Source: Escherichia phage EC148
Sequence record: NC_106721.1
Direction: 5' to 3' (one strand)
Length of the DNA: 64,000 bases
Position numbers and translations under genes: made by a program. Positions 1,227 through 57,491 of this stretch are shown one piece after another (within the stretch, counting starts at the first letter, position 1; each line of letters opens with the position of its first letter). A model generated the notes under the pieces. The model was not told the origin of the DNA and searched no databases. It saw only the letters and a list, made by a program, of their open reading frames with translations.

Positions 1227-1264
1227 ATTTATAAAACCCCAATTAGTTTAATAATGGATTTAAA

Positions 1265-5585: not shown

Positions 5586-5877
5586 GGTTATCCTACTGTA
5601 TATTTATACAGGGTAAAAAGGTAGTGTTAACAACTGCAATCAATTTTAAGCGGCTTAAATCGCATTCTAACGAGCTAAACGCTGTAAGGTAATATTAAAG
5701 TAAAGCCTCAATGCGTCGGCCTGGTGGCTTCGCCGTGGTTTGCTCTTTATTGCACCGCTGCGCGGTTATCATAAAAATAGGCGCTAGGCAAGGAAAATAA
5801 AAAGGTAAAATAATATTTGCCTATGCTAGAAATTTACCTTTATCATTCACTCACCGATTAACGAGGAGGCCGAACAA

Positions 5878-6888: not shown

Positions 6889-6896
6889 TAATATTT

Positions 6897-6925
6897 AGCG
6901 GGGATTATTTCCCCGCTTTACTACT
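6897..6925 (+). terminator. hairpin terminator candidate
   Basis: stem AGCGGGGA/TCCCCGCT followed by T-rich tract directly after the 336 aa ORF. Confidence 0.45.
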
Positions 6926-6953
6926 CCCTTGTTAATTAATAGGAGGCTAATAA

Positions 6954-7448: not shown

Positions 7449-7552
7449 TGTAAAGTTTTGTAAAGGTCGCCTTTTATGGTGGCCTTTTTTGTTATAATGC
7501 TTTTACACCAAAACGGTGGATTAAAAATTTCCCAAAAATTTGGAGGCTTAAA

Positions 7553-19041: not shown

Positions 19042-19419
19042 TTATCTCCAGTGGTTAGTATGCTTCTCAGCTTCCTCATCGTTAGGCTCAAAGACAACAT
19101 GGCAGTCAACTGCTTCCCAAAAAGCCTCACGGATTAAAGAGTTTTTAGCTGAAATGTCTAATTCTCCCCACTCTTCTAAAGTCTCTAGGTCTGTATCAAC
19201 TTCGGTATCACAGCCAACCAGCCCCAAAGAGACAACAATAGTAACGCGATCTTCACGCTGTTCGGGATAAACATCAGCATATTCCCAAGCAGCTTCTTCA
19301 ACATAATATTGTTGTTCCTTTTCTGGAAGTGACTTATACTTTTCTTCTGTAATACCCATCTCAACGGCGCGAGTACCACAAACTACATTGTTATTAATAA
19401 TTAGATATGCATAGTTCAT
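19042..19419 (-). CDS. hypothetical acidic protein
   Basis: 125 aa ORF. Confidence 0.4.
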   Translation of the reverse strand: MNYAYLIINNNVVCGTRAVEMGITEEKYKSLPEKEQQYYVEEAAWEYADVYPEQREDRVTIVVSLGLVGCDTEVDTDLETLEEWGELDISAKNSLIREAFWEAVDCHVVFEPNDEEAEKHTNHWR

Positions 19420-19530
19420 CGTAATACTCCTATTTCTTGAGTGGCAAAGATGTCCATTAATATGGCTAAAATCCCTGCAAAGATAGGTGGCGTAAGCATA
19501 TTAATGGCTCTCTTATCAATTTATATAAGT

Positions 19531-30160: not shown

Positions 30161-30236
30161 TGGAGCGGCTAGAGGGAATCGAACCCTACTCAGCGAGGCT
30201 TGGAAGGCCTGCGGCACAACCCGTGTGCTTAACCGC
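30161..30236 (-). tRNA. tRNA-Gly (UCC)
   Basis: 76 nt; anticodon loop CTTCCAA; T-arm GGGAATCGAACCC. Confidence 0.6.
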
Positions 30237-31077: not shown

Positions 31078-31172
31078 TGGAGGTAGGTAAGGGGATCGAA
31101 CCCTTACACCGTATCACTACGATCAACCGATTTCAAGTCGGAGTCCAGCGCCAGCCATTGGATTGACCTACC
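31078..31172 (-). tRNA. tRNA-Ser (UGA), type II
   Basis: 95 nt; anticodon loop CTTGAAA; long variable arm. Confidence 0.5.
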
Positions 31173-31184: not shown

Positions 31185-31275
31185 TGGCGGAAGAGGAGAG
31201 ATTTGAACTCTCAAGCCGTTTTACCAGTCAGCCACTTTCCAAGCGGTTTTCGTCACCAATTCGATTTGCTCTTCC
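31185..31275 (-). tRNA. type II tRNA-like, anticodon unresolved
   Basis: 91 nt; perfect acceptor pairing and T-arm GAGAG-TTCAAAT-CTCTC but no canonical anticodon arm found by hand. Confidence 0.35.
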
Positions 31276-33567: not shown

Positions 33568-33669
33568 GCTTGTTTCCTCAGTTATTAATGAAAATGGTAT
33601 CTGTGACTGAATTCGATGTCAGCAATGATAGCTGGTTGGCTACCGGTTTACTTAACTCTACACAGAATT

Positions 33670-33752
33670 TGGCGGGCCGTGTAGGATTCGAACCTACGTT
33701 GTCTTTCGACATGGATTAACAGTCCACCGCCAAACCGCTTGGCTAACGACCC
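33670..33752 (-). tRNA. tRNA-Asn (GUU)
   Basis: 83 nt; anticodon loop CTGTTAA; unusually long (13 nt) variable region. Confidence 0.45.
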
Positions 33753-33904
33753 TAAATTTATATTGCTGACTAGGATTTTCACCTAGACGGAGTTAGCACC
33801 GTAGCGTGTAGCGGCATACCTCTCCAAACCGTGCCTCATCTTTCAATTACGGAGACAGTGTTCCTACGCGTGCCTGAATTGATTTAACAACTCTTTCAGC
33901 AAAT

Positions 33905-33980
33905 TGGACGACCGCATGAGATTTGAACTCACATAAAAAGGATTTGCAATCCTTCGCCTAAGCCATTCAGCCAACGGTCG
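33905..33980 (-). tRNA. tRNA-Cys (GCA)
   Basis: 76 nt; anticodon stem AAGGA/TCCTT, loop TTGCAAA. Confidence 0.6.
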
Positions 33981-34028
33981 ATTTATCTTGTTCTGTCATG
34001 TTGCTTCTCCAGTTCAATTTATGTAATT

Positions 34029-34057
34029 ATTATACAGAACTTTTGGAAACTAAGCAA
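34029..34057 (-). promoter_or_regulatory. early promoter, TTGCTT-17-TATAAT
   Basis: conserved cassette. Confidence 0.55.
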
Positions 34058-34337
34058 CTACATTTTTTAAAAATTTGATGCCTTTCTTTTTCTTCTTATA
34101 TTTCCACGTTAAGGGATTCTGTCGATTATGAACGCTTGAGATCTTTGTCTCGTCAAAGTTCTTCAATATCATGTAATCACAGGATAATTGTTCTAATGGA
34201 ATGTGATCACCGTCAAAAGCGTATACATAAGGCTGTTGACTAGCACGATAATGATAGACTTTGTTAATTCTACGCTTCAGCAACTTATCCGCGCAGTAAA
34301 TAAAGAAGTTTTCAGGATGCATCAGCAGCTCCCTCAA
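34050..34337 (-). CDS. hypothetical protein
   Basis: 95 aa ORF; 5' end may be shorter because the ORF start overlaps its own promoter. Confidence 0.3.
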   Translation of the reverse strand: MRELLMHPENFFIYCADKLLKRRINKVYHYRASQQPYVYAFDGDHIPLEQLSCDYMILKNFDETKISSVHNRQNPLTWKYKKKKKGIKFLKNVVA

Positions 34338-34339
34338 TT

Positions 34340-34414
34340 TGGTGCACCCTGTTCGTATCGAACGAACCTCTCAAGCTCTTCAGGCAAGCGCTAATCCATC
34401 TCAGCTAAAGGTGC
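34340..34414 (-). tRNA. tRNA-Phe (GAA), tentative
   Basis: 75 nt; anticodon loop CTGAAGA; anticodon stem has two U-U mismatches. Confidence 0.4.
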
Positions 34415-34420
34415 AAATTT

Positions 34421-34497
34421 TGGCAAACCTACTAGGACTCGAACCTAGACCGTACGGTTTTGGAGACCGACATGCTGTCCAGTAACACTCTAGGAAT
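34421..34497 (-). tRNA. tRNA-Trp (CCA)
   Basis: 77 nt; anticodon loop CTCCAAA; two acceptor mismatches. Confidence 0.45.
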
Positions 34498-34505
34498 GCA
34501 GGAAT

Positions 34506-34582
34506 TGGCGTCCTGTGCGGGGATCGAACCCACAAATCCTACCTTGAAAGGGTAGTGACTTTACCAGTTTGTCTAACAGGAC
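34506..34582 (-). tRNA. tRNA-Glu (UUC)
   Basis: 77 nt; anticodon stem CTACC/GGTAG, loop CTTTCAA. Confidence 0.6.
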
Positions 34583-34589
34583 TTAAATT

Positions 34590-34680
34590 TGGTGTTGGAT
34601 GATGGAGTCGAACCACCCGAGACCCTTCCGAGTCGGCAGATTTACAGTCTGCTTCGCTACCTCTACGATACTAATCCAAC
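34590..34680 (-). tRNA. tRNA-Tyr (GUA), type II
   Basis: 91 nt; anticodon stem GCAGA/TCTGC, loop CTGTAAA; long variable arm. Confidence 0.6.
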
Positions 34681-34761
34681 ATATTTAAAAGTATTCAAAT
34701 ACTAGTTTAAACACTTTTAGATATGTTTCCAAATTAGATAACTATTATATCAAGTTTTATG

Positions 34762-34800
34762 GCACTGAGCAAGTCAAATTTTAAAGAACTTGCTCAGTGC
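34762..34800 (-). terminator. 13 bp perfect hairpin (terminator or processing site)
   Basis: GCACTGAGCAAGT ... ACTTGCTCAGTGC immediately downstream of the TGA-containing ORF; no clear U-tract. Confidence 0.4.
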
Positions 34801-34808
34801 TGTATTAG

Positions 34809-35084
34809 TTAGTCGAACTTAGGAGCGACAGTTAAGGAGAATGGAAGTTCGAAAACTTCTTCGCCCTCATCACTAACAGTAATTACACGACCTTTAAGTT
34901 CAGACATTGAAATATCAATATCAGCTTTTGCATCTGGAGCCATGCCAGCTTCAATACATTTAGCTTTAACTTCCGGCAGAAGTTCTACATCGTAGAAATA
35001 AAGCCATTCAATCTCACCTTCCCAGCCTTCTCAGGATTTACAGATTGCACTTTCAATACCAGTTGCTATAACACGATTTTGCAT
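34809..35084 (-). CDS. early ORF interrupted by an in-frame TGA at codon 18
   Basis: promoter and conserved leader abut the ATG at 35084; 17 codons, then TGA (35031-35033), then 73 in-frame sense codons to TAA at 34809. Confidence 0.35.
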
Positions 35085-35114
35085 TCGTTAACTCCTTCAT
35101 CAATTTATATAACT

Positions 35115-35144
35115 ATTATACCAGAAATTTAAAGCAAAAGGCAA
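35115..35144 (-). promoter_or_regulatory. early promoter, TTGCCT-18-TATAAT
   Basis: conserved cassette with variant -35. Confidence 0.5.
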
Positions 35145-35174
35145 GTACATTTTTAAAAATTCTGTTTGGAGGAG

Positions 35175-35381
35175 CTAAACTCCAGATTCTTCAGCTAAGT
35201 CTAGGCTAATAAGAGATATAGCCATAATTGCTGCTCCGTGTTCTCTTTCTCCTGTCTCTTTAGCTAGGGTTATAATATCAAGAAATTGCTTATGAAAGTC
35301 TGCAACCTCTTGAGTCATACCTGCCTCAGCAATCATGCCTTTAAGCATGAAACGTTGTGCGGTAATTTCGGGATTAGCCAT
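35175..35381 (-). CDS. hypothetical protein
   Basis: 68 aa ORF. Confidence 0.4.
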   Translation of the reverse strand: MANPEITAQRFMLKGMIAEAGMTQEVADFHKQFLDIITLAKETGEREHGAAIMAISLISLDLAEESGV

Positions 35382-35556
35382 GTTGTTTCTCCAGTTTCAT
35401 GTTTAATAGTCTACAAATAAAATCAATGTCTTCATCTGTGCCTAGATCTCTATCTTCAAGAGTTGCCTTGAAGTTTTTCGTCAATTCCATGAGGATAACT
35501 TCTCTAGAACGACGTGTTGGCGGAGGTGGATGTCTATACATCTTATTTCCTTAAGT

Positions 35557-35633
35557 TGGTAGGGGTGGTGGGATTCGAACCCACAAAACCTGAATTTTAA
35601 GTCCAGTACCTATACCAATTCGATTACACCCCC
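35557..35633 (-). tRNA. tRNA, anticodon loop CTTAAAA (UAA, Leu by anticodon) on a class I body
   Basis: 77 nt; acceptor GGGGGTG, T-arm GTGGG-TTCGAAT-CCCAC; 5 nt variable loop. Confidence 0.4.
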
Positions 35634-35734
35634 ATGTAATCAGTTTATTAGTTGATACATATTATAGCCTAGTGAAAATCCTACTACTAGTCCCACAAAC
35701 CAACCAATATAATAATCTTTTAGTTTCACAGGTA

Positions 35735-35920
35735 TTATCCTCGTTCAATATCTAGGGAAACACCGCAGTTAGGATTAATACCTGTACCGTTGCAATTTGA
35801 ACAAATCCAGATATTGCAAAAAGTATCTCCTGCTTCTGCATCAGAACTTTCACCAATTCCCCTACACTCAGGGCAGGCACATTCTTCTAGCTCTTGCTTG
35901 AGTTCTTGAAACTTGGACAT
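35735..35920 (-). CDS. small Cys-rich protein
   Basis: 61 aa; CACPEC ... CSNCNG. Confidence 0.4.
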   Translation of the reverse strand: MSKFQELKQELEECACPECRGIGESSDAEAGDTFCNIWICSNCNGTGINPNCGVSLDIERG

Positions 35921-35929
35921 ATAGTCTCC

Positions 35930-36118
35930 TTAGTCAATTACTTTTGAGGCTTCAAGGGAGTCGATATAGTATACGTTTTCTACCATAATCATATAATCTG
36001 CCACTTTATCCATAGCTTGGGCCTCAGAGGTAGCTCTGGCTAACCTATATCCTTTTTTATATTCATCCGGGTATTCTCTATCTTGAATAAATACAACATA
36101 AACTATGTATAATTCCAC
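35930..36118 (-). CDS. hypothetical protein
   Basis: ORF track 35930..36265 runs into tRNA genes; start moved to a GTG with AGGGG RBS near 36118. Confidence 0.3.
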   Translation of the reverse strand: MELYIVYVVFIQDREYPDEYKKGYRLARATSEAQAMDKVADYMIMVENVYYIDSLEASKVID

Positions 36119-36138
36119 TTGTAATCCCCTAATTAAGT

Positions 36139-36216
36139 TGGTGGCTCCCCGAGGATTCGAACCTACGTACCTTCCGGTTATGAGCCGGGTGCTCATACCA
36201 TATGAGCTTGAGAACC
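36139..36216 (-). tRNA. tRNA, anticodon CAU (Met/fMet or Ile-lysidine)
   Basis: 78 nt; anticodon loop CTCATAA; third CAU tRNA in the cluster. Confidence 0.5.
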
Positions 36217-36222
36217 AGAATT

Positions 36223-36311
36223 TGGCGGAAGAAGTGGGAATCGAACCCACAAGGCTATATTTCAAACCGACAGATTAGCAATCTGCTGCAATACCGTTAT
36301 GCTATTCTTCC
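36223..36311 (-). tRNA. tRNA-Ser (GCU), type II
   Basis: 89 nt; anticodon loop TTGCTAA; long variable arm. Confidence 0.55.
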
Positions 36312-36332
36312 GAATTTATAAGATATATTATA

Positions 36333-36851
36333 TTAGAAATTTAGCTTCATAGCAAGAAAATTTTTCAAGTTTTCGGTAGACATCTCATCCACATCTACGG
36401 GAGAAACAAAGCCGTTTAATTTTCTAGCAAATTTTTCACCCGCAGGATCGTTGTCTCCGACAGCTACCAATTTAAAAGGTAATAATTTCAGTTGCTTTAA
36501 TAACGCTTTTCCTGGAGAAGAACCTAACATTGCCAGGGCTGGATAACCAGCGTTATGTAGCGCAACTGCCTTAAATACAGATTCAGCGATCAATACTACT
36601 TTTTCATCTCCATTGAGAGTTTCTAGTCCCCATACACACTGGGTAGTAGAATAAGTAAAATATTTAGCTTCAAAGGGACACTTACCATGACCTTTTGGAG
36701 CAGAAGGATTATACGTCTGATAGCCTCGCAACATCCCGGAGAAGTCATACAACGGGACTGTTAGCCATCCTTCCGGACTTAACCAGCAATGATATTTATC
36801 TGTATCAAATCCTCTGGATAAGAGGTGCTGTGTTAGCTCATCAACATTCAT
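36333..36851 (-). CDS. Toprim-like domain protein (putative)
   Basis: start taken at MNVDELT; C-terminal E ... VGDNDPAG resembles a Toprim acidic motif. Confidence 0.3.
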   Translation of the reverse strand: MNVDELTQHLLSRGFDTDKYHCWLSPEGWLTVPLYDFSGMLRGYQTYNPSAPKGHGKCPFEAKYFTYSTTQCVWGLETLNGDEKVVLIAESVFKAVALHNAGYPALAMLGSSPGKALLKQLKLLPFKLVAVGDNDPAGEKFARKLNGFVSPVDVDEMSTENLKNFLAMKLNF

Positions 36852-36881
36852 ATTTGGTTCCTCTCTCAAATTTATAGATAT

Positions 36882-36910
36882 ATTATACAGAGAATTTAGC
36901 ATTCAAGCAA
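36882..36910 (-). promoter_or_regulatory. early promoter, TTGCTT-17-TATAAT
   Basis: conserved cassette. Confidence 0.55.
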
Positions 36911-37026
36911 TCAAATTTTTTAACTTTTTAGAGGAAAATCATAGGGCACTTAAGGGTAGCAGATAAGTGGGGAGGACCAAAATTTGTGACCCCACTAAAA
37001 ATCCGGGGGCAATTTTTAAAGACCCC

Positions 37027-37055
37027 TTGACATTTTCGCTGGGGTAGTGTAAAGT
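37027..37055 (+). promoter_or_regulatory. plus-strand sigma70-type promoter (TTGACA-17-TAAAGT)
   Basis: consensus -35; differs from the TTGCTT-TATAAT early cassette; precedes the plus-strand three-gene cassette. Confidence 0.45.
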
Positions 37056-37117
37056 ATATGTTATGGATGAGTGATCAAAGAGACACACATTTTCTATATA
37101 CTAGGAGGTGTCAAAAT

Positions 37118-38107
37118 ATGACAGAAGAAGTAGCTAAGAGTCCTGAGACCGTCGCTAGCGTTGCAGCAGAACTGCACAGTCACGAGGAATCAGATAAGAA
37201 AAAGTGGGAGAAGGTCAGAGCCTACGAAGAAAAACATCGTGAACACGATGATGAAGAAGAAGATGACGATGATGAACATTGTCATAAATATGGAAAACAT
37301 AAAATGCAAGAACCAGTAAACGTATTCACTAGTGGCTTCCCTGGCCTACTGGGTGGTTACCCAGCAAACGCAGGTGCTTTCGGTGGTGAAGGTATGGGAC
37401 TATTCGGAGCTATCCTAATCGGTGCTCTATTAACCGGCGGATTCGGTGGTTTCGGTGGATTCGGTGGACGTGGTGTAGTTGGTGAAGGTACCGCAGTTGA
37501 TGCAGTACTTCAGAACCAAGATACCGCTAGTATTCTAGCAGCTATCAACACTACTCGTACAGAGGCTAACCAGGGTACTGGAGCTGTTTTAAGCGCAGTT
37601 AACAATGGTTTTAGCCAGACAACCCAAAACCAGAGCCGTGATACTCAGTCTGTACTAACTACGATCTACGGTACAGGTGCTAATCTGTCTAATCAGATCT
37701 GCCAGGAAACTCGCAACGTTATTCAGGGTCAGTTCGATCTTTCTCGCCAGATTGATCAATCTTTCGCAGCTAACCAGATAGCTCGTGCACAAGATAAGTT
37801 TGATTCTGCACAGATCGCTTTCCAGCAGACTTTACAAACTAATAACCAGTTTGCCGCTGTTCAGGCTCAGATGTGTGCTAACCAGAACTCTCTGGAACGT
37901 CAGATCGCTGAATGTTGCTGTGAACTTCAGACTGCGATCGCTGGTGTAACTACTGCGCGTATCCAGGATGAGTTAGACGCATGTCGCCTACGTGAAGCAA
38001 TCGCTGCGGGTAGCGGTGCTAACGGTCAGGTAATTAATCAAATCGCTTTAAGTCTTGGTGCTATCACTCAGACTCTGGCTGGTCTGCAGGCTAAACTGCC
38101 GGCTTAA
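37118..38107 (+). CDS. membrane-anchored Gly-zipper / Gln-Asn-rich protein
   Basis: start moved to ATG with AGGAGG RBS; acidic N-terminus, GLFGAILIGALLTGGFGGFGGFGG hydrophobic Gly-rich segment, then Q/N/T-rich repeats and a CCC motif. Confidence 0.55.
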   Translation: MTEEVAKSPETVASVAAELHSHEESDKKKWEKVRAYEEKHREHDDEEEDDDDEHCHKYGKHKMQEPVNVFTSGFPGLLGGYPANAGAFGGEGMGLFGAILIGALLTGGFGGFGGFGGRGVVGEGTAVDAVLQNQDTASILAAINTTRTEANQGTGAVLSAVNNGFSQTTQNQSRDTQSVLTTIYGTGANLSNQICQETRNVIQGQFDLSRQIDQSFAANQIARAQDKFDSAQIAFQQTLQTNNQFAAVQAQMCANQNSLERQIAECCCELQTAIAGVTTARIQDELDACRLREAIAAGSGANGQVINQIALSLGAITQTLAGLQAKLPA

Positions 38108-38128
38108 TATTAAGGGGAGGAGCCCATT

Positions 38129-38545
38129 ATGAGTAAATATGGTTTTGTAAATAACGGACTTAATCAAAGTATGGGCTCCCAGCAGCCCATTCCGGGTCTG
38201 GATAACCCCTACTTACAACAGTTGCAACAGCGTTTAGCAGAAGCGCAACAGATGCAGCAACAACTCCAGCAAAACCCTGGAAGTGTGAGTCCTATGCAAA
38301 TGATGCAGCAAATGAGCGGGCAGTCGCAAATGCCTCAACAAATGCAGCAACAGGTGCCTCAGCAGCAAGTTCAGCAACAAACCCAACAACCGCAGGTTTC
38401 TGCGGAAGGACAGGCAGTACTAGCCCTTTTCGAAGACTTCGCAAAGACAGAGGATGGGAAACAGCTTGTATCACTTATGGGTAAGTTTAATAGCTTCTGC
38501 CAAAGCCAAGTTGCAAAAGCTCAAAATGGGGGTAGTAACTCCTAA
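38129..38545 (+). CDS. Gln-rich low-complexity protein
   Basis: 138 aa; GGGGAGG RBS; poly-Q/M tracts. Confidence 0.5.
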   Translation: MSKYGFVNNGLNQSMGSQQPIPGLDNPYLQQLQQRLAEAQQMQQQLQQNPGSVSPMQMMQQMSGQSQMPQQMQQQVPQQQVQQQTQQPQVSAEGQAVLALFEDFAKTEDGKQLVSLMGKFNSFCQSQVAKAQNGGSNS

Positions 38546-38554
38546 GGAGGAAAT

Positions 38555-38749
38555 ATGTGTTGCAGAAAATCTGTTTCGTGCTGCCCAGTGCCTGTAGCAC
38601 GTTGTTGCTCTCCAGCAATGTTTACGCAAATACCGGCGTTCAATCCCTTTGCCTTTAAGCCTACTCTTATCCTGCCCCCTAGAGTAGATTTTCAGTCAAG
38701 ATTGGCCTCCCGTATGGGTGGTTGCTGTACACCGAGAGTATGGTTCTAA
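38555..38749 (+). CDS. Cys-rich peptide with four CC doublets
   Basis: 64 aa; AAGGAGG RBS; MCCRKSVSCCPVPVARCCSP ... GGCCTPRVWF. Confidence 0.45.
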   Translation: MCCRKSVSCCPVPVARCCSPAMFTQIPAFNPFAFKPTLILPPRVDFQSRLASRMGGCCTPRVWF

Positions 38750-38757
38750 ACCAAAAA

Positions 38758-38796
38758 CAAAAGCCCCTGCCGAAAGGTAAGGGGCTTTTTCTTTTG
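38758..38796 (+). terminator. rho-independent terminator
   Basis: stem AGCCCCT/AGGGGCT followed by TTTTTCTTTT. Confidence 0.65.
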
Positions 38797-38804
38797 CCTT
38801 AAAT

Positions 38805-38842
38805 ACAGAAAAGCCCGCGCTCTCGTAGGAAACGCGGGCTTG
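38805..38842 (-). terminator. rho-independent terminator
   Basis: stem AGCCCGCG/CGCGGGCT with U-tract on the minus strand after the SPFH gene stop. Confidence 0.6.
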
Positions 38843-38864
38843 GTTCGAAGATTACGTGTAACTA

Positions 38865-39812
38865 TTACTTGTTACGCATATCCATGATCATTTGACCATC
38901 GTAGCCAGTACCTACCACAGTCTGAGGTACACCACCTTGATACTTCTGAGCACGGATCATTTCAACTTCCAGTTGTTTCCAACGAATCATTTCAGGAGTA
39001 ATGGTACGTTGCAATGCGGCGTTAGCTTCAGCTTCTTTCTTAGCTGCGTACAGTTTAGCATCTGCGTCACGTTCATTAGCAATAGCTTGGTTGTTACGAG
39101 CTTCACGATCTGCTTCTGCTTGTTTAACTTTTTGCTGTGCTTCCTGTTCAACGCGAGCAAGTTCAGCTTTCGCAGCATTAACTTGCTCTTCACGAACTTT
39201 GGTATTCTGTACCTGTTCCATGATTACTGGCGGCAAGGTAATATCCTGAAGGAATACCTGCTTAACTGTGTAACCATATGGGCGCGCATACTCTTCAACT
39301 TCCTGTTGAATTGCAGTTTGCAATTGAGCCTGAATTTTAGCATCAAATAAATCTTGTGCTTTAGGTACAGACTTACCAAACTCACGAATAGTAGACAGTA
39401 ATTTTTCAGTTACATACTTGTCTAGTGCCTGATCCTGAGTACCTGCGTTAATACGGTTAATCGGTGCTTTAGAACCATCAAACTGCAACATAACAGTCAG
39501 GTCAACAGTGGATTTAAACTTATCCTGGCTAGGAACCTGAAGTTTATCTAATTTTACAGCAATATCTTTTGTACTAAAAGTATCGAAAGATGCAAACGGG
39601 TTTACAAGATGGAAGCCCGGCAATACTGGATTAGGGTCTACTTTACCCAGGAATGTTTGGGTTTTAACCGTACCATCAGAAACAATAGTATATGAATTAA
39701 AAGCTAGGATTAAACCTGCTAAACCAACTACAGCACCAATACCCCAACGTTTAATAGTACGAATTACTTTCTGCTCAGAAGTCAGTTCTTTCATATTTTT
39801 AGTAGCAAACAT
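38865..39812 (-). CDS. SPFH/band-7 (prohibitin/HflKC-like) membrane protein
   Basis: 315 aa; N-terminal TM helix, SPFH-like core, Ala/Glu/Gln coiled coil, prohibitin-like C-terminus. Confidence 0.55.
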   Translation of the reverse strand: MFATKNMKELTSEQKVIRTIKRWGIGAVVGLAGLILAFNSYTIVSDGTVKTQTFLGKVDPNPVLPGFHLVNPFASFDTFSTKDIAVKLDKLQVPSQDKFKSTVDLTVMLQFDGSKAPINRINAGTQDQALDKYVTEKLLSTIREFGKSVPKAQDLFDAKIQAQLQTAIQQEVEEYARPYGYTVKQVFLQDITLPPVIMEQVQNTKVREEQVNAAKAELARVEQEAQQKVKQAEADREARNNQAIANERDADAKLYAAKKEAEANAALQRTITPEMIRWKQLEVEMIRAQKYQGGVPQTVVGTGYDGQMIMDMRNK

Positions 39813-39846
39813 ATATTTCCTTTGTTTTAGTTACAGTTAATAAAAT

Positions 39847-39921
39847 TGGCCGAGGTGACAGGATTCGAACCTGCATAAAGGAATTTAGAAGACTCCTGCC
39901 TCTCCCTTAGACTACACCCCG
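39847..39921 (-). tRNA. tRNA-Arg (UCU)
   Basis: 75 nt; anticodon loop CTTCTAA; T-arm ACAGG-TTCGAAT-CCTGC. Confidence 0.5.
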
Positions 39922-40423
39922 TTTAAGTATTTTTAAGAACTCTCGTAAAAACTCTTAAAAATACAGACGATACCGGGAGAGTCATAAGTCTCACTCATTA
40001 AGTATTTCAAGACAAAATACAGTAACGTCTATTATTTTCCAGTTTAAGTCAGGGTGACTTAGTGGTTATGTCCTGCGGTATATTGAGGACTCGGTTAGGC
40101 TTGGGGTCATGACTTCCCACCTTTTGCTGCTACTCAACAGGAGTTATCGCGAATTACCTGTGCTATTGTGCACCATTAGTGACATCTCTCATGTCAGCAT
40201 TTCCCACTTTGTGGATAGCTTGAAAAACTACTCCGATATGGAGAAAGAACTTCACTATCCTAGAATACCTTCTAAAGTTCTTCTTTAGCCTGGACATAGT
40301 TAAATCGTAATAAAACTATTCAGCAGACTGGTTGGTTAGTCTGGAACCAACTACCGCGTGGTTTAGGCAGTGCGCAACTAACCTCGGAAGCTTTTATGTT
40401 AAAAGCATCAGTTATCCAGTTCT

Positions 40424-40493
40424 TACCGACCGTAGGATTCGAACCTACATCTTCCACCAGTTACGGCTTGATAATACCAATTATACTAGGACG
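40424..40493 (-). tRNA. tRNA-like element, anticodon unresolved
   Basis: T-arm GTAGG-ATTCGAA-CCTAC and plausible acceptor pairing; internal arms not resolved. Confidence 0.25.
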
Positions 40494-40718
40494 GCAGTGT
40501 TACTACATAAGTGATTTCCACACCCCACTATTTATAAATCAGAGAAGAGTTTAGGGGAGAGGTTTCAGACGCCTCATTTTACACGTTCTAGCCACTAACC
40601 GGGATTGCCGCCCCCTGTGTACTAGTTTTACAACTAACCCACCGACTCTATTCAATGCGCTCCGGTTGGGATTCTGCACTCAGCGTAATCGGCTCGCTGT
40701 TCCCTAATTTATGAATAT

Positions 40719-40747
40719 ATTATACAGAATTTATAAGCATTTAGCAA
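40719..40747 (-). promoter_or_regulatory. early promoter, TTGCTA-17-TATAAT
   Basis: conserved cassette. Confidence 0.55.
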
Positions 40748-40755
40748 ATGAATTT

Positions 40756-41190
40756 TTAGAAAAATTCACTAGCAATCAAAGCAGTTGTTTTACCGTCATA
40801 ACGTCCGGGAAATTCTGCCTTAATAGTTTTCATTAATAGAGCTTTGGTAATACCTGGGTTTAATTTAACCAGTTCTGCAAAATACTCACGAATCTGAACC
40901 TCAGTCAGTTGACTTGGCTGATACTCTTGCAGCATGGAATAAAGCAGTTGCTCATAGTCTACATCAGTAGGAACTTCCATACCAACTTTAATAGCGCGTT
41001 GTTTTGCATTTTCTAGAGCCTTAATCTGAGCTTTCAGATAGGCTACGAACTCGGTTCGAGTAACAATGTCTTTATCAATACGTTGCAGATCACCAATCAT
41101 GGTCTGAAGATTAAGTGCCCGTTCCTTATCACCGTGAGTACGTGCTAGACTAAGTAGTCCACGAAGGGTCATTAGAATATTTTCACCCAT
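40756..41190 (-). CDS. hypothetical protein
   Basis: 144 aa ORF. Confidence 0.45.
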   Translation of the reverse strand: MGENILMTLRGLLSLARTHGDKERALNLQTMIGDLQRIDKDIVTRTEFVAYLKAQIKALENAKQRAIKVGMEVPTDVDYEQLLYSMLQEYQPSQLTEVQIREYFAELVKLNPGITKALLMKTIKAEFPGRYDGKTTALIASEFF

Positions 41191-41194
41191 TATT

Positions 41195-41362
41195 TCATCC
41201 CCAATGCTTGGTTAAAAGATTGTTCTGTCATAACTGCTGAGACTTTGGCGAAATCAAACTTTTTAGGGTTCGTAGTTATTTCAGCAACGTTAGAAGTTTT
41301 AACAGTTTTCGTAGTACGAATACCGCGAGTGTTAACACCAATAATTACAACTGATTTCATAT
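41195..41362 (-). CDS. hypothetical small protein (55 aa)
   Basis: own translation MKSVVIIGVNTRGIRTTKTVK...; directly behind promoter 41392-41420; stop overlaps next start. Confidence 0.35.
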
Positions 41363-41391
41363 TTCGCTTCCTCTCATTAATTTATGAAAGT

Positions 41392-41420
41392 ATTATACAG
41401 AAATTTAAGTAGCTAAGCAA
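41392..41420 (-). promoter_or_regulatory. early promoter, TTGCTT-17-TATAAT
   Basis: conserved cassette. Confidence 0.55.
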
Positions 41421-41428
41421 GTAAATTT

Positions 41429-41896
41429 TTAAGTTTTAGTGACAACAGGTTTATAGAATGTATGTCCCTTAATCTTAGTTGTTTTCTTAAACTTCTTTGT
41501 CCAGTAAGGTTTATCTTTACCACTATGGAAGTATAGTGCTCCATATGTAGGATCTTGTGGTAAATCAACGTAGTATATCACTCTAGCTAAATTCTTAGCA
41601 GTTTGCCAAGCCTCATCAGTTTTATCAACTTTTGGTCTCTTAGATACCCAAGAGAACTGGTTAGACTGATATACTACTTTACAGTAGGAATCTGGGAATT
41701 TACCGGAGTTTACACGGTTTTTAGTAACATGTGCAATCGCCGTCATTCCCTTTATGCCCTCACCACGACTTTCGAAATAGATATTTTTAGCAATGCAATC
41801 TATTTCTTTTGCATCGTGCGATGCCTGACTACTAAAGCTGAAGGTAAGGGCAGCTACTAAAAGCAAAGCTGCCTTCATTCTTTTTACTCCTGCCAA
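41429..41896 (-). CDS. secreted cell-wall hydrolase, SleB/Hydrolase_2-like
   Basis: 155 aa; signal peptide; ESRGEG ... AIAHVTKNRVNSGKFP ... QSNQFSW matches the SleB-family signature. Confidence 0.5.
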   Translation of the reverse strand: MAGVKRMKAALLLVAALTFSFSSQASHDAKEIDCIAKNIYFESRGEGIKGMTAIAHVTKNRVNSGKFPDSYCKVVYQSNQFSWVSKRPKVDKTDEAWQTAKNLARVIYYVDLPQDPTYGALYFHSGKDKPYWTKKFKKTTKIKGHTFYKPVVTKT

Positions 41897-53749: not shown

Positions 53750-55624
53750 ATGAATCGCAATGAAGAACTAAAGTATAAAGAAATGCAGGCGTTAATTAGA
53801 AACTGCAAAGAGATTATCGAAGGGTCAGCAGATGAAGAGCTGCTGTTTAATAATGCCAATAAACCCTCAGAACGTTTCCCTACACAGAGGGATATGCTTG
53901 CAGGTGAATTGAGTAAGTATCTGATTCTAGAAGAAATGCCAATTCAGATTCGAAATGCTCATATGATTGGGGATATTCATTTCCATGATGCTGATTATGC
54001 TGCATTAGGCATGACTAATTGTTGTCTGGTAGCTCTGGAAGATATGTTGAAGAATGGTATGAAGGTTGGTAATGCTGAAATTAGCACTCCAAACTCTATC
54101 ACTACTGCGGCAGCTATTACAGCTCAGATTATCACACAGGTTAGCTCCCATCAGTATGGTGGTACTTCCGTGGATCGCCTTGATGAAGTATTAGCTCCTT
54201 ATGTTCGTAAATCCTATGACAAAAATCATGCGTTTGCAAAACGTTGGACTAAAGATGAGGCCAAAGCATCAGTAATGGCTACGGAGATGACTGAAAAAGA
54301 AGTTTATGATGCCTGTCAGGGTCTAGAATATGAAATCAATACCATGTTCAACTCTAATGGTCAGAGTCCATTTATTACCTTTGGTTTTGGTCTAGGAACT
54401 TCTTGGGAAGCACGTCTAGTACAGAAAGCAATACTGAAAGTACGCATGGATGGCTTAGGTATCAATAAACGTACAGCTATCTTCCCGAAACTGGTATTTG
54501 TACTTCGTGATGGCGTTAACATGAAACCAGGAGATGTTAATTATGACATCAAGAAGTTAGCTATGAAATGTACTGCTGAACGTATGTATCCAGATTATAT
54601 CAGCTATGATAAGGTTGTGGAAGTTACTGGTGACTATAAAGTTTCTATGGGCTGCCGTTCATTCCTAGCTGCTACAGAAGATGGTGAAACTGCCGGTCGT
54701 AATAACTTAGGTGTTGTTTCTGTAAACTTGCCTAGAATTGCTATCGAAGCTGAAGGAAATATTGATCTATTCTTTGATTTGCTTGAGCTACGTGTGGATA
54801 CAGCATTAAAAGCGTTGGAGTGGAGAGTTGATCGCTTAAAATACATTCAAGCTAAAGCTGCACCCATCCTCTATATGTCAGGAGCCTTTGGACTGCGCTT
54901 GGAGCCTGATGAATACGTATTCGATCATTTCTATAACCGTGCTTCTGTATCTCTAGGATATATTGGTTGTCATGAAATGCTACAGTTCATGTTTGGCAAA
55001 GATGTAGACACAATGTCCGAGACCAGCATCAAGTTTGTTCAGCGTGTATTGCAGTACATGCGAGATAGAGTCGATCAGAAGAAGGAAGAAACTAAGTTAG
55101 GTTATAGCCTGTATGCTACACCGTCAGAGTCCCTGTGTGATAGGTTTTGCCGTTTAGATCGTGAATATTTCCCGGAGCATGAAGATATTCTGTCCAAAGG
55201 ATACTACACTAACTCTCACCACCTTGATGTGGAACGTAAAGTTGCTCCCAATGTGAAATTTGATTATGAATCTAACTTTACTCCGATTGCTTCTGGTGGG
55301 TGTATTTCCTATGTAGAACTACCGGATATGAAACGATTCCCAGATGCACTAGAATGGGTTATTAATTATGCTGCTAGTAAAGTTCATTACTTCGGTATTA
55401 ATACTCCAGTGGATTCTTGTGGTAAATGTGGATTCTTAGGTGAAACAATAGCATCCGAAGATGGATTTAAGTGCCCTATCTGTGGTAATCATGACCCCGA
55501 AACTCTTGAAGTAACTCGTCGAGTTTGTGGGTATCTTGGAAATCCAGGTGCTCGTCCATTTAACCCAGGCAAACAGCATGAGGTTATGGGCAGGGTGAAA
55601 CATCAGGATATTCGAGCTAAGTAA
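53750..55624 (+). CDS. nrdD: anaerobic ribonucleoside-triphosphate reductase (class III)
   Basis: 624 aa; C-terminal zinc ribbon CGKCGF ... CPICG and glycyl-radical motif RVCGYLG. Confidence 0.8.
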   Translation: MNRNEELKYKEMQALIRNCKEIIEGSADEELLFNNANKPSERFPTQRDMLAGELSKYLILEEMPIQIRNAHMIGDIHFHDADYAALGMTNCCLVALEDMLKNGMKVGNAEISTPNSITTAAAITAQIITQVSSHQYGGTSVDRLDEVLAPYVRKSYDKNHAFAKRWTKDEAKASVMATEMTEKEVYDACQGLEYEINTMFNSNGQSPFITFGFGLGTSWEARLVQKAILKVRMDGLGINKRTAIFPKLVFVLRDGVNMKPGDVNYDIKKLAMKCTAERMYPDYISYDKVVEVTGDYKVSMGCRSFLAATEDGETAGRNNLGVVSVNLPRIAIEAEGNIDLFFDLLELRVDTALKALEWRVDRLKYIQAKAAPILYMSGAFGLRLEPDEYVFDHFYNRASVSLGYIGCHEMLQFMFGKDVDTMSETSIKFVQRVLQYMRDRVDQKKEETKLGYSLYATPSESLCDRFCRLDREYFPEHEDILSKGYYTNSHHLDVERKVAPNVKFDYESNFTPIASGGCISYVELPDMKRFPDALEWVINYAASKVHYFGINTPVDSCGKCGFLGETIASEDGFKCPICGNHDPETLEVTRRVCGYLGNPGARPFNPGKQHEVMGRVKHQDIRAK

Positions 55625-55630
55625 GCTAAT

Positions 55631-55666
55631 CAGCCGGGTTGCTAGTCGACCTGGCTTTTATTTTAT
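55631..55666 (+). terminator. terminator candidate
   Basis: imperfect stem AGCCGGG/CCTGGCT followed by TTTTATTTTATTT. Confidence 0.45.
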
Positions 55667-55695
55667 TTGCTTTCAGCCAAAAATTTATATATAAT
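55667..55695 (+). promoter_or_regulatory. plus-strand early promoter, TTGCTT-17-TATAAT
   Basis: same cassette as the minus-strand promoters, with leader ATTTATAAATTTGAGAGGAG. Confidence 0.55.
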
Positions 55696-55723
55696 AGATT
55701 TATAAATTTGAGAGGAGAAAGAT

Positions 55724-56104
55724 ATGGAATTAAAGCCCTATATAGTTGAATCTACATGTGGTAGTTTCCATCTGGGTGTAGATGATATTGCTGAGGCTGT
55801 CTTTGCTGCCACAGGTGATTACTCGCATATAGAGGGTGTTGGATACCCTACCATTATTGGCGATTGGGTGGGAACAAATCTAGATGTATCGCCTTATAAC
55901 CCATATTGCTTGTTTGATGAAGACAGAGATGAAGTAAAATGTAATCTTGAATTTGTGTATAATAGAGTGTTAAAAGTATACCAACGTAGCCCCAATGGGT
56001 ACGAAGATATTACTTGGAGTATTAAACAGTATCTTAAAGATGTATACTCTAGTTTTTCTGACGAAGACCTAGAAACAGTTGCAGTGGAGTTTAATAATGA
56101 CTAA
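55724..56104 (+). CDS. hypothetical protein
   Basis: 126 aa ORF. Confidence 0.45.
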   Translation: MELKPYIVESTCGSFHLGVDDIAEAVFAATGDYSHIEGVGYPTIIGDWVGTNLDVSPYNPYCLFDEDRDEVKCNLEFVYNRVLKVYQRSPNGYEDITWSIKQYLKDVYSSFSDEDLETVAVEFNND

Positions 56105-56303
56105 GAATGTGAAACACCTTAAATATCGCTTAATTTACAACGGACGTATGGAAACAGAAGATCTGGCCCAATTAGCTATTAACTCTAATGAGGTTACAGT
56201 GCGTGCACTGGCAATTGAAAAGTTGCGTGCCTCTTATGAAAATCGTGTTATGGAACTAGAGGAGAAACTTTATGGCATTCTCGAAGCCGATACTACCAGA
56301 TAA
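56079..56303 (+). CDS. hypothetical protein
   Basis: 74 aa ORF. Confidence 0.4.
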   Translation: MQWSLIMTKNVKHLKYRLIYNGRMETEDLAQLAINSNEVTVRALAIEKLRASYENRVMELEEKLYGILEADTTR

Positions 56304-56493
56304 GGGTTTAAACTCCGCTTTGGAAAATGCATTAATGCAGCAGTGGGAAACTGGCTATAAGGATGGTGTTGAATCCTGCGCTACTATGCTAGAAGTTATT
56401 GCTAATACCTTAATGGAGAAAGGCAATAAAGAATTAGCTGAGCTATTAGACAGTATTGGGCAAAACTTCAGAGAACAGGTGAAAAATGCGTAG
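56272..56493 (+). CDS. hypothetical protein
   Basis: 73 aa ORF. Confidence 0.4.
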   Translation: MAFSKPILPDKGLNSALENALMQQWETGYKDGVESCATMLEVIANTLMEKGNKELAELLDSIGQNFREQVKNA

Positions 56494-57322
56494 ATTAATT
56501 ATTATTAGTGGTGCGGGTTTGAGTGTTGAAAGTGGTGTACGAGCCTTCCGTACTGATACTGCTAGTGGTAAAGCATTGTGGGATGACTATGATCTAGAAG
56601 AAGTATGTAATATTCATGCCTTTCGTGGTAATTTTTATCATAAAACCCATATGTTTTACAACAAGCGTCGTGAAGAGCTAAAAACTGTTGAACCCAATCT
56701 TGCGCATTTGCGTATTGGTGAATGGTATAAACAATATCCAGGTCAAGTAGTAAACTTGACTACCAACGTTGATGACCTTATTGAGCGTGCTGGCGTTCCA
56801 CATAGTGACATTCTGCATATTCACGGATATTTAAAAGAGGTTGTTGTAGCTGATAGCTACAATAGTAGCAATAAACGGATTATTGATGTAGGATACAATT
56901 CTATTGATCCAGATGATTATAAATGGGTTAAACCTAATGTAATCTTCTTTGGAGAGCATGCTCCTGCATACGCAGAAATGTATAATGTTTTTGACGGTAT
57001 TACCAGTCAAGATATGATCATTGTGGTTGGTTGCTCTAACCAAGTAATTAACTTCTACTGGGAATTATTTCCTGTTCTTAATAGGACTGCTGCGAAATTT
57101 ATGGTAGTTAACTACTATGATAGTGCCCTCGCGGCGGAACCGGGCTATCAAGGTATGACTCGTAGTGAGATGTACCAGCTGGAAGAACGTGGTGTCCCTT
57201 ACTGGAGTAAAGGTGCGGTAGATGCTTTTAGTGATCCTGATTTTATTGCTCGTGTAGAAGCTCATTTAGAGGGTAGACCTTATGTGTCGAGAAGCAAGGG
57301 AAACAGATATGTCCATAGTTAA
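56486..57322 (+). CDS. Sir2-family (sirtuin-like) NAD-dependent enzyme lacking the zinc-ribbon module
   Basis: 278 aa; GAGLSVESGVRAFR, TTNVDDLIERAG, HIHG, VIFFGE match sirtuin NAD-binding motifs; no CxxC pairs. Confidence 0.6.
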   Translation: MRRLIIISGAGLSVESGVRAFRTDTASGKALWDDYDLEEVCNIHAFRGNFYHKTHMFYNKRREELKTVEPNLAHLRIGEWYKQYPGQVVNLTTNVDDLIERAGVPHSDILHIHGYLKEVVVADSYNSSNKRIIDVGYNSIDPDDYKWVKPNVIFFGEHAPAYAEMYNVFDGITSQDMIIVVGCSNQVINFYWELFPVLNRTAAKFMVVNYYDSALAAEPGYQGMTRSEMYQLEERGVPYWSKGAVDAFSDPDFIARVEAHLEGRPYVSRSKGNRYVHS

Positions 57323-57491
57323 ATCTGTGTATACACACCCCGATGATATATTTGTATGGGCGGATGGTAGTTGGTGCTATCGCTGTGAGCTGTGGGAGAT
57401 GGACTATAAATCCGATGACTATGGTGTTATATATGTTGATACGGTTGAGTATGATACGTTCTTAGAAAGGAACAAAAATGGAAATAAGTAA
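57282..57491 (+). CDS. hypothetical protein
   Basis: 69 aa ORF. Confidence 0.35.
   Translation: MCREARETDMSIVKSVYTHPDDIFVWADGSWCYRCELWEMDYKSDDYGVIYVDTVEYDTFLERNKNGNK

What the first reader, a model, noticed from the sequence alone, without database searches (positions are those of the whole stretch)
34809..35144. Early ORF with an in-frame TGA directly downstream of a canonical promoter-leader, next to the tRNA cluster
The conserved early promoter and leader place the ATG at 35084. The frame reads 17 sense codons, TGA at 35031-35033, then 73 further sense codons in the same frame to TAA at 34809, followed by a 13 bp perfect hairpin. An open run of 73 codons in roughly 40 percent GC DNA is unlikely by chance, so the downstream part is probably coding. 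Possible explanations are programmed UGA read-through or recoding (Trp, Cys or Sec; a tRNA-Trp lies about 600 bp away), a leader peptide plus a non-ATG restart, a nonsense pseudogene, or a sequencing error. I did not find a tRNA with a UCA anticodon by hand.
Basis: seen in the sequence. Interest (0 to 1): 0.65.

Follow-up and report, generated by a model that had tools for sequence, protein, structure and literature searches.

The report
Nonsense mutation in dispensable phage gene
The in-frame TGA is real, but it is an ordinary one-base mutation (Trp TGG to stop TGA) that knocks out a small, non-essential early gene in one T5-like phage isolate, not a case of programmed stop-codon recoding.

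Summary
On the minus strand there is a promoter, a Shine-Dalgarno site, ATG 35084, 17 codons, TGA 35033-35031, 73 more codons, TAA 34809 and a 13-bp hairpin.

The window is Escherichia phage EC148, a T5-like Tequintavirus. The ORF is the orthologue of T5 ORF068/T5.072 (phrog_4551, function unknown).

- **Conservation:** every relative examined has TGG (an invariant Trp) at this codon. This held for 34 of 34 protein cluster representatives and 29 of 29 fetched loci. With TGG restored, the surrounding 81-mer is identical to 57 deposited genomes; with TGA it matches none.
- **No recoding machinery:** the nearest relative differs in this gene only at that base. There is no UCA-anticodon tRNA, no SECIS-like fold, and no other genuine in-frame stop in the window.
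- **Coding gene, but dispensable:** dN/dS is about 0.2, and the gene lies inside the deletion of the viable strain T5st0.
- **Not a sequencing error:** the TGA is reproduced by an independent assembly of the public reads, and the genome was sequenced at 187x.

GenBank already annotates only the 44-aa remnant. One point remains of minor interest: a second isolate (Citrobacter phage Cit2) independently has TGA at another invariant Trp, codon 27. Verdict: a strain-specific null or leaky allele, of low interest.

The parts
35115..35144 (-). Early sigma-70-type promoter (TTGCCT / overlapping TTGCTT, then TATAAT with an upstream TG) driving the ORF
   Evidence: 10 of 12 matches, TG present. The orthologous site is annotated as a promoter in AKFV33 and as early promoter T5P20 in T5.
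35092..35097 (-). Shine-Dalgarno AAGGAG, 7 nt upstream of the ATG
   Evidence: Read directly from the sequence. Identical in T5_ev212 and AKFV33.
34809..35084 (-). Orthologue of T5 ORF068/T5.072 (phrog_4551, 91 codons), interrupted at codon 18
   Evidence: It is 98.9% identical to the intact T5_ev212 protein. Family dN/dS is 0.21.
35031..35033 (-). Opal stop TGA replacing the invariant Trp18 codon TGG. This is a G-to-A transition on the coding strand; on the + strand, position 35031 is T in the window and C in the relative.
   Evidence: The same base is found in the independent assembly L033.
34809..34943 (-). Residual 44-aa ORF starting at the internal Met47. This is what GenBank annotates for phage EC148 (URF91807.1). 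It has no convincing Shine-Dalgarno site.
   Evidence: The upstream sequence was read.
34762..34800 (-). 13-bp perfect hairpin with a 13-nt loop, 9 nt after the TAA. It has no T-run. Its 3' arm overlaps the -35 element of the next promoter.
   Evidence: It was not scored as an intrinsic terminator. The next promoter is mapped from the AKFV33 annotation.
34743..34772 (-). Next early promoter (TTGCTC-N17-TATAATA), which drives the tRNA-Tyr/Glu/Trp/Phe cluster. The downstream tRNAs therefore do not depend on transcription through the broken ORF.
   Evidence: AKFV33 regulatory feature at locus 1829-1858, mapped onto the window. T5 early promoter T5P19. Sequence read.
34421..34497 (-). Phage tRNA-Trp with anticodon CCA. 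It is the only conceivable phage-borne near-cognate reader of UGA. It has no difference from the copy in TGG-bearing T5_ev212.
   Evidence: (36.3 bits).

Best explanation
The window comes from Escherichia phage EC148, a T5-like Tequintavirus. The ORF is the orthologue of T5 ORF068/T5.072, a 91-aa early protein of unknown function found only in T5-like phages. In EC148 a single G-to-A transition changed the invariant Trp18 codon TGG to the opal stop TGA.

Translation from the intact promoter, Shine-Dalgarno site and ATG therefore ends after 17 residues, and the allele is null or at best strongly hypomorphic. The lesion is recent, because the rest of the gene is base-for-base identical to intact relatives. 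It is tolerated because the gene is an accessory gene in the deletable, tRNA-rich early region.

Shown: the mutation, its derived state, its presence in the read consensus, the absence of any recoding machinery, and the dispensability of the gene. Inferred: loss of the protein, and the absence of a polar effect, since the downstream tRNAs have their own promoter.

Any trace of full-length protein would come from ordinary near-cognate decoding of UGA by tRNA-Trp(CCA), which would restore the wild-type residue. That is background leakiness, not a programmed event.
For: 1. **Derived single-base change.** T5_ev212 is identical over 351 nt except TGG for TGA. Only about 30 scattered differences separate the two genomes across window 7.5-54.6 kb.
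2. **Trp18 is invariant.** It is present in 34 of 34 cluster representatives and is TGG in 29 of 29 fetched loci. The TGG-restored 81-mer is 100% identical to 57 deposited phage genomes, while the TGA version matches none of 296. IMG/VR holds 25 TGG loci and no TGA locus. The only TGA pattern hits in the genome and metagenome collections are an unrelated archaeal gene.
3. **Real in the reads.** The Logan assembly of SRR21280016 is 100% identical over 6135 nt, including the TGA. EC148 was sequenced at 187x on MiSeq.
4. **No recoding apparatus.** No tRNA has a UCA anticodon in default or relaxed ARAGORN or in Rfam. The RNA downstream of the stop folds no better than shuffled sequence (z = -0.33), and there is no Rfam match. 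The phage tRNA-Trp is unchanged relative to TGG-bearing relatives.
5. **Not genome-wide.** Against all 239 T5_ev212 ORFs, the window has this one genuine in-frame stop.
6. **Coding gene, yet dispensable.** dN/dS is 0.21. The viable strain T5st0 lacks wild-type T5 positions 33602-41799, which contain ORF068.
7. **Other lesions occur sporadically in the same gene and its neighbours.** Cit2 has TGA at codon 27, SP-3 has a replaced C-terminus, P0030 is frameshifted, and L005 has Gly114-to-TGA in a neighbouring gene.
8. **Already treated as truncated.** GenBank annotates only the 44-aa remnant.
Against: - No protein or ribosome data exist, so loss of the product is inferred.
- The stop falls on a Trp codon. 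That is the one position where background UGA misreading by tRNA-Trp would regenerate the wild-type protein, so the allele may be leaky rather than null.
- A second independent Trp-to-TGA allele in the same gene (Cit2) is a mild coincidence.
- I did not inspect raw reads. A subpopulation with TGG cannot be excluded.
- It is unknown whether the mutation arose in nature or during the three or more rounds of plaque purification.
Confidence: 0.9

Rival explanations
1. Functionally meaningful UGA-to-Trp read-through. Host tRNA-Trp and/or the phage-encoded tRNA-Trp(CCA) decode the UGA often enough that the gene still works. Trp-to-opal changes in T5-like phages would then be nearly neutral, or would act as an expression throttle.
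For: - The stop sits on an invariant Trp codon.
- A second isolate has TGA at another invariant Trp, codon 27.
- The phage carries its own tRNA-Trp about 550 nt away. Its D-stem has a Watson-Crick U11-A24 pair. From my own knowledge, that is the state produced by the Hirsh UGA-suppressor mutation G24A in E. coli tRNA-Trp.
- The rest of the ORF is undecayed.
Against: - TGA is not conserved: it occurs in one lineage against several hundred with TGG.
- TGG-to-TGA is simply one of the few single-transition routes to a stop, so finding stops at Trp codons is expected.
- An undecayed ORF is equally expected for a recent mutation.
- The tRNA-Trp is identical in TGG-bearing relatives, scores poorly (36.3 bits), has two U.U mismatches in its acceptor stem, and is absent from T5 itself.
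- A U11-A24 pair is the common state in tRNAs generally (my own knowledge).
- Other stops in neighbouring genes replace Gly, Gln and Arg, not Trp.
- No other Trp-to-TGA change exists in the window.
Confidence: 0.05
2. Sequencing or assembly error: the true phage has TGG.
For: It is a single-base difference from the nearest relative, and no other record shares it.
Against: - Two assemblies agree on the TGA: the GenBank record made with CLC, from which the 44-aa ORF is annotated, and the independent Logan assembly of the same run.
- Average Illumina coverage was 187x, and substitution errors do not survive such a consensus.
- The site is not in a homopolymer.
- Both assemblies use the same library, so an error at the PCR or library stage is not strictly excluded.
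Confidence: 0.03
3. Selected knock-out. The protein is harmful on particular hosts, for example because it triggers a host defence system, and nonsense alleles were selected during isolation on ECOR4 (EC148) and on Citrobacter freundii (Cit2).
For: - There are two independent nonsense alleles in a 91-codon gene.
- Four further distinct 44-aa remnants are called in other assemblies.
- Both confirmed cases were isolated on non-K-12 hosts.
Against: - A rough background estimate: one internal nonsense per roughly 33,000 aligned codons in neighbouring genes. That predicts about 0.6 events in the 46 N-terminal codons across about 430 genomes, so 1-2 observed events are not an excess.
- In an evenly spread sample of 60 of the 416 matching records, 58 had a CDS annotated over the N-terminal half; the other two were a record with no annotation and one with only a 35-nt match.
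- The gene has no PADLOC or Pfam link; Pfam gave no hit.
- I could not retrieve the other truncated alleles.
Confidence: 0.05
4. A 17-aa leader peptide plus re-initiation produces a functional C-terminal fragment, the 44-aa product from Met47.
For: An in-frame ATG exists at 34943, and gene callers annotate the 44-aa ORF.
Against: - In all relatives the two parts form one continuous frame under uniform purifying selection.
- No relative has a stop after codon 17.
- There is no canonical start between the TGA and Met47 and no good Shine-Dalgarno site before Met47.
- The fragment would lack the most conserved N-terminal half, including C15, W18, W21 and W27.
Confidence: 0.02

Closest known systems
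T5 ORF068 / T5.072 (YP_006900.1), phrog_4551: a hypothetical early protein of Tequintavirus and Markadamsvirinae phages
   Same: Same synteny: promoter, ORF, hairpin, promoter, then tRNA-Tyr/Glu/(Trp)/Phe. It is 92% identical to the T5 protein, and identical to the T5_ev212 protein at every codon except the stop at 18 (98.9%). It is the same length, 91 codons.
   Different: Codon 18 is TGA instead of TGG, so the product is cut to 17 aa.
Ordinary nonsense (opal) alleles of dispensable phage accessory genes, i.e. strain-specific pseudogenes
   Same: A single derived transition, otherwise intact regulatory signals and ORF, a gene located in a deletable region (T5st0), and similar sporadic lesions in other isolates.
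   Different: Nothing essential. The only nuance is that the stop replaces Trp, so background UGA misreading by tRNA-Trp would restore the native residue.
Programmed UGA recoding: selenocysteine insertion, UGA=Trp genetic codes, or suppressor-tRNA-dependent read-through in recoded phages
   Same: An in-frame TGA in a coding ORF next to a phage tRNA cluster.
   Different: The stop is not conserved in any relative. There is no tRNA-Sec or UCA suppressor tRNA and no SECIS element. TGA is not used in-frame in any other gene of the window.
Hirsh suppressor (E. coli tRNA-Trp G24A, which reads UGA without an anticodon change). Recalled from my own knowledge, not tested here.
   Same: The phage tRNA-Trp(CCA) has U11-A24 in its D-stem.
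   Different: It has a different tRNA body with a weak acceptor stem. It is identical in phages that keep TGG, and its suppression activity is unknown and untested.

Membership tests
Programmed stop-codon read-through / recoding | The in-frame stop is conserved among orthologues | tested here: not met
   TGG in 34 of 34 cluster representatives and 29 of 29 loci. 57 genomes match the TGG-restored 81-mer exactly and none matches the TGA version. IMG/VR has 25 TGG loci and no TGA locus.
Programmed stop-codon read-through / recoding | A dedicated decoder: a tRNA with anticodon UCA (suppressor or tRNA-Sec) | tested here: not met
   ARAGORN default and relaxed settings, plus Rfam, on 27.5-41.5 kb found 25-27 tRNA-like genes. 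None has a UCA anticodon.
Selenocysteine insertion (bacterial) | A SECIS hairpin immediately 3' of the UGA | tested here: not met
   The 81 nt spanning the UGA (7 nt before to 71 nt after) fold at -16.2 kcal/mol, z = -0.33 against shuffles. There is no Rfam hit at E<=10 apart from noise. The sequence is identical to that of TGG-bearing relatives.
Alternative genetic code (TGA = Trp) in the phage | TGA occurs in-frame in many genes at conserved Trp positions | tested here: not met
   Only this one genuine in-frame stop appears when all 239 T5_ev212 ORFs are compared with the window.
Strain-specific nonsense allele (pseudogene) of T5 ORF068 / phrog_4551 | Orthology to an intact, selected coding gene | tested here: met
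   phrog_4551 E = 1.2e-44. Synteny with T5, AKFV33 and T5_ev212. dN/dS 0.21.
Strain-specific nonsense allele (pseudogene) of T5 ORF068 / phrog_4551 | The stop is a derived point change from a sense codon | tested here: met
   It is the only difference from T5_ev212 in the 351 nt aligned around the gene, and the only difference from 8 records within a 701-nt query.
Strain-specific nonsense allele (pseudogene) of T5 ORF068 / phrog_4551 | The gene is dispensable, so the lesion is tolerated | tested here: met
   The T5st0 deletion (wild-type T5 33602-41799) removes ORF068. tblastn finds no copy in the 25-kb stretch of T5st0 (record 20000-45000) that spans the syntenic locus.
Strain-specific nonsense allele (pseudogene) of T5 ORF068 / phrog_4551 | The full-length product is absent | not testable with these tools
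   This needs proteomics or ribosome profiling of EC148-infected cells.
Sequencing artefact | The base is not supported by the reads or by an independent assembly | tested here: not met
   The independent Logan assembly of SRR21280016 has the TGA. Coverage was 187x. I did not inspect the raw read pile-up.
Leader peptide (uORF) plus downstream cistron | A separate short ORF and an independent start site, conserved in relatives | tested here: not met
   Relatives have one continuous 91-codon frame. The first canonical start after the stop is Met47, which has no clear Shine-Dalgarno site.

The most novel reading that the evidence does not exclude
Trp-to-opal changes may be unusually well tolerated in T5-like phages because UGA is misread as Trp at an appreciable rate during infection. 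The EC148 (codon 18) and Cit2 (codon 27) alleles would then be leaky, low-expression versions of the gene rather than nulls. A related variant of this reading is that the repeated knock-outs are selected because the protein is harmful on certain natural hosts.
Probability: 0.06. Interest if true: 0.45.

Novelty: already known. Interest (0 to 1): 0.08.

Why it matters
It matters little biologically. It is one more strain-specific null allele in the dispensable, tRNA-rich accessory region of a T5-like phage, and the database record already treats the gene as truncated.

Its practical value is as a caution. An in-frame stop next to a phage tRNA cluster looks like recoding, but it can be settled quickly by comparing orthologues.

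If the minority reading were true (appreciable UGA-to-Trp read-through in infected cells), it would bear on what phage-encoded tRNAs do. Nothing found here requires that reading.

Tried and rejected
- **Suppressor tRNA.** ARAGORN default and relaxed settings, plus Rfam, found no UCA anticodon. The odd tRNA-like gene at 40424-40495 has a non-canonical anticodon loop and no UCA.
- **SECIS or other structured element after the stop.** The fold z-score is -0.33 and Rfam gave nothing.
- **TGA allele elsewhere.** IMG/VR has none. The single hits in genome contigs and metagenome contigs are one unrelated archaeal gene in another frame. The extra hit of the allele-neutral pattern (L032) is also unrelated.
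- **Paralogues in the window.** None.
- **Function of the protein.** Pfam gave no hit. PHROGs gave only phrog_4551 (unknown function) and a weak N-terminal match to phrog_4991. AlphaFold2 on 31 sequences gave mean pLDDT 56 and pTM 0.35, too poor for a fold search, so none was run.
- **Literature.** There were no hits for T5.072, and nothing for the deletable region in the searchable library. I tested dispensability directly from the T5st0 record instead.
- **Genome-wide TGA = Trp.** Rejected.

Full report
**1. Observation.**
On the minus strand, window 35084..34809 translates as MQNRVIATGIESAICKS*EGWEGEIEWLYFYDVELLPEVKAKCIEAGMAPDAKADIDISMSELKGRVITVSDEGEEVFELPFSLTVAPKFD*. That is 17 sense codons, TGA at 35033-35031, 73 sense codons, and TAA at 34811-34809.

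A promoter-like site (TTGCCT-18-TATAAT with a TG extension) lies at 35144-35115. AAGGAG sits 7 nt before the ATG. A 13-bp perfect inverted repeat with a 13-nt loop lies at 34762-34800. tRNA-Trp(CCA) is at 34421-34497. Every factual element of the finding is confirmed.

**2. What the window is.**
The region matches more than 400 deposited T5-like phages (Demerecviridae, Tequintavirus). The best matches are 99.9% identical over 701 nt. The nearest is T5_ev212 (LR597659). Across window 7.5-54.6 kb, only about 30 scattered differences separate the two genomes. The left end of the window (up to about 7.5 kb) and a block at 54.6-57.3 kb are mosaic.

The 44-aa remnant ORF (from Met47) is deposited as URF91807.1 of Escherichia phage EC148. 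It is also called on a 107,637-bp Logan contig assembled from run SRR21280016. That contig is 100% identical to the window over 6135 nt, including the TGA.

The genome announcement (PMC9583813) describes EC148 (ON185585.1, 107,754 bp). It was isolated from bird faeces on E. coli ECOR4, plaque-purified at least three times, and sequenced on MiSeq at 187x average coverage. The announcement also names T5_ev212 as the closest relative.

**3. The orthologues.**
T5_ev212 and AKFV33 annotate an intact 276-nt CDS at exactly this place. In the 351-nt alignment, T5_ev212 differs from the window at one base only: TGG (Trp) where the window has TGA. In T5 itself the gene is ORF068, also called T5.072, preceded by early promoter T5P20.

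- The protein family has 34 clusters at 90% identity and is restricted to T5-like phages. It corresponds to phrog_4551 (unknown function) and has no Pfam domain.
- Trp18 is invariant in all 34 representatives.
- At the DNA level, 29 of 29 fetched loci read TGG.
- IMG/VR holds 25 T5-like loci with TGG and none with TGA. An allele-neutral pattern added only an unrelated sequence.
- The window's 81-mer around the stop matches none of 296 deposited records exactly. The same 81-mer with TGG restored matches 57 records at 100%.
- TGA pattern hits in the genome and metagenome collections are an unrelated archaeal gene read in another frame.

The TGA is therefore a derived, lineage-specific G-to-A transition.

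**4. Is it a real coding gene?**
Yes. Across 24 distinct alleles, dN/dS is 0.21 for the whole ORF, 0.13 for codons 19-46 and 0.20 for codons 47-91. The two parts form one frame under purifying selection in relatives. This is not a leader peptide followed by a second cistron.

**5. Tests of recoding.**
- No tRNA with a UCA anticodon was found by ARAGORN (default or relaxed settings) or by Rfam across the tRNA cluster.
- The RNA downstream of the UGA folds no better than shuffled controls (z = -0.33), and no Rfam family matches.
- The whole gene and the tRNA-Trp are identical to those of TGG-bearing relatives, so nothing has co-evolved with the stop.
- Comparing all 239 ORFs of at least 40 aa in T5_ev212 with the window gives only this one genuine in-frame stop. 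The other hit is in an unannotated alternative frame. TGA is therefore not used as a sense codon in this genome.

**6. Is it an error?**
This is unlikely. Two assemblies of the data (the GenBank record and Logan) agree, coverage was 187x, and the site is not in a homopolymer. I did not inspect raw reads.

**7. Why it is tolerated.**
The viable laboratory strain T5st0 (AY692264) lacks wild-type T5 positions about 33,602-41,799. That interval contains ORF068 (35,538-35,813). tblastn finds no copy in the 25-kb stretch of T5st0 that spans the syntenic locus. The gene is therefore dispensable for lytic growth.

The downstream tRNA-Tyr/Glu/Trp/Phe cluster has its own promoter at 34772-34743. I infer from this that no polar effect is expected.

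Other isolates carry other lesions:
- SP-3 has a replaced C-terminus, and P0030 has a frameshift.
- A neighbouring 329-aa gene has Gly114-to-TGA in IMG/VR locus L005.

In an evenly spread sample of 60 of the 416 matching records, 58 have a CDS annotated over the N-terminal half of the gene. The other two are a record with no annotation and one with only a 35-nt match. Disruption is therefore rare and sporadic.

**8. The one curiosity.**
Citrobacter phage vB_CfrD-Cit2 (OP745948) keeps TGG at codon 18 but has TGA at codon 27, another invariant Trp. It too is annotated as the 44-aa remnant. Four further distinct 44-aa remnants exist in other assemblies, but I could not retrieve them.

Two independent Trp-to-opal alleles might suggest tolerated UGA-to-Trp read-through. 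The phage tRNA-Trp also has a U11-A24 D-stem pair. From my own knowledge, that is the state created by the Hirsh suppressor mutation.

Several points weigh against this reading:
- TGG-to-TGA and TGG-to-TAG are among the very few single-transition routes to a stop. In the first 46 codons, 6 of the 7 such routes are at the three Trp codons (read from the sequence).
- The tRNA is weak, with 36 bits and two U.U mismatches in its acceptor stem. It is unchanged in TGG-bearing phages and absent from T5.
- A rough background rate is one internal nonsense per about 33,000 aligned codons. That predicts roughly 0.6 such events in this gene's N-terminal half across about 430 genomes, so 1-2 observed events are not an excess.

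**9. Mechanism and verdict.**
This is a recent TGG-to-TGA nonsense mutation at Trp18 of a dispensable early accessory gene in one isolate. Transcription and initiation signals are intact, and translation ends after 17 residues. Any full-length product would arise only from background near-cognate misreading of UGA by tRNA-Trp, which happens to restore the native residue.

It is not programmed recoding, not a leader peptide, and probably not an error. GenBank already annotates the gene as truncated. This is an ordinary feature of low interest (0.08). The residual novel reading (appreciable read-through or a selected knock-out) has a probability of about 0.06.

Noticed in passing
L034 (OP745948.1, Citrobacter phage vB_CfrD-Cit2), locus position 438-440: A second, independent Trp-to-TGA change in the same gene, at the invariant Trp27. 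The predicted protein is otherwise identical to that of its nearest intact relative, NBSal003 (L007). It is annotated only as the 44-aa remnant. Four more distinct 44-aa remnants (P0039, P0040, P0041, P0043) exist in Logan/ENA assemblies, with unknown lesions.
   Followed up: partly
window 34421-34497 (minus strand): The phage tRNA-Trp(CCA) has two U.U mismatches in its acceptor stem, a U11-A24 D-stem pair, and one of the lowest Rfam scores in the cluster (36.3 bits). Wild-type T5 has no detectable tRNA-Trp in the 86-nt gap between tRNA-Glu and tRNA-Phe at the syntenic position.
   Followed up: partly
window 40424-40495 (minus strand): A tRNA-like gene (Rfam 35.5 bits) that default ARAGORN misses. 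In relaxed mode it is called 'Ser(act)' with a non-canonical anticodon loop (A rather than U before the anticodon). The T5 record flags the orthologue as a pseudo-tRNA.
   Followed up: partly
window 30161-30236, 31078-31172, 36139-36216 (minus strand): Default ARAGORN misses tRNA-Gly(tcc), tRNA-Ser(tga) and a third tRNA-Met(cat). They appear only with relaxed thresholds or in the relative's annotation. Rfam at gathering threshold finds the Met but not the Gly or the Ser. T5_ev212 also annotates a second tRNA-Ser at about window 31185-31275, which neither tool found here.
   Followed up: partly
window 34743-34800 (minus strand): The 3' arm of the 13-bp hairpin after the ORF overlaps the -35 element (TTGCTC) of the next early promoter. 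The hairpin has no T-run, so it is not a canonical intrinsic terminator. It might couple termination or RNA processing with promoter occupancy.
   Followed up: no
window 1-7500 and 54600-57330: The window is mosaic relative to T5_ev212. These blocks are only 92-95% identical or densely polymorphic, whereas the centre is about 99.9% identical. This suggests recombination among T5-like phages.
   Followed up: no
window 18921; 47275: There is a 1-nt insertion relative to T5_ev212 inside the orthologue of CDS VUF54882.1 (reference 19366-19530), which is a possible frameshift in one of the two records. There is also a 15-nt deletion in an intergenic region at 47275.
   Followed up: no
window 28843, 28872 (tRNA-Ile) and 34532 (tRNA-Glu): There are point differences from T5_ev212 inside tRNA genes. 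I did not assess their effect on tRNA structure.
   Followed up: no
L005 position 5912 (IMGVR_UViG_2974579171_000001): Gly114-to-TGA in the orthologue of the 329-aa protein encoded at about window 37118-38107 (+). This is another sporadic nonsense lesion in the accessory early region of a different isolate.
   Followed up: no
L019 (Salmonella phage SP-3) and P0030: Other disrupted alleles of the same gene. In SP-3 the C-terminus is replaced from about codon 57. In P0030 there is a frameshift near codon 72.
   Followed up: partly
AY587007.1 ORF068 annotation (L036 12001-12276): The T5 record tags this protein 'IPR000531: TonB-dependent receptor protein'. Pfam finds nothing in the 91-aa protein, so the tag is probably a spurious short-signature match.
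   Followed up: partly
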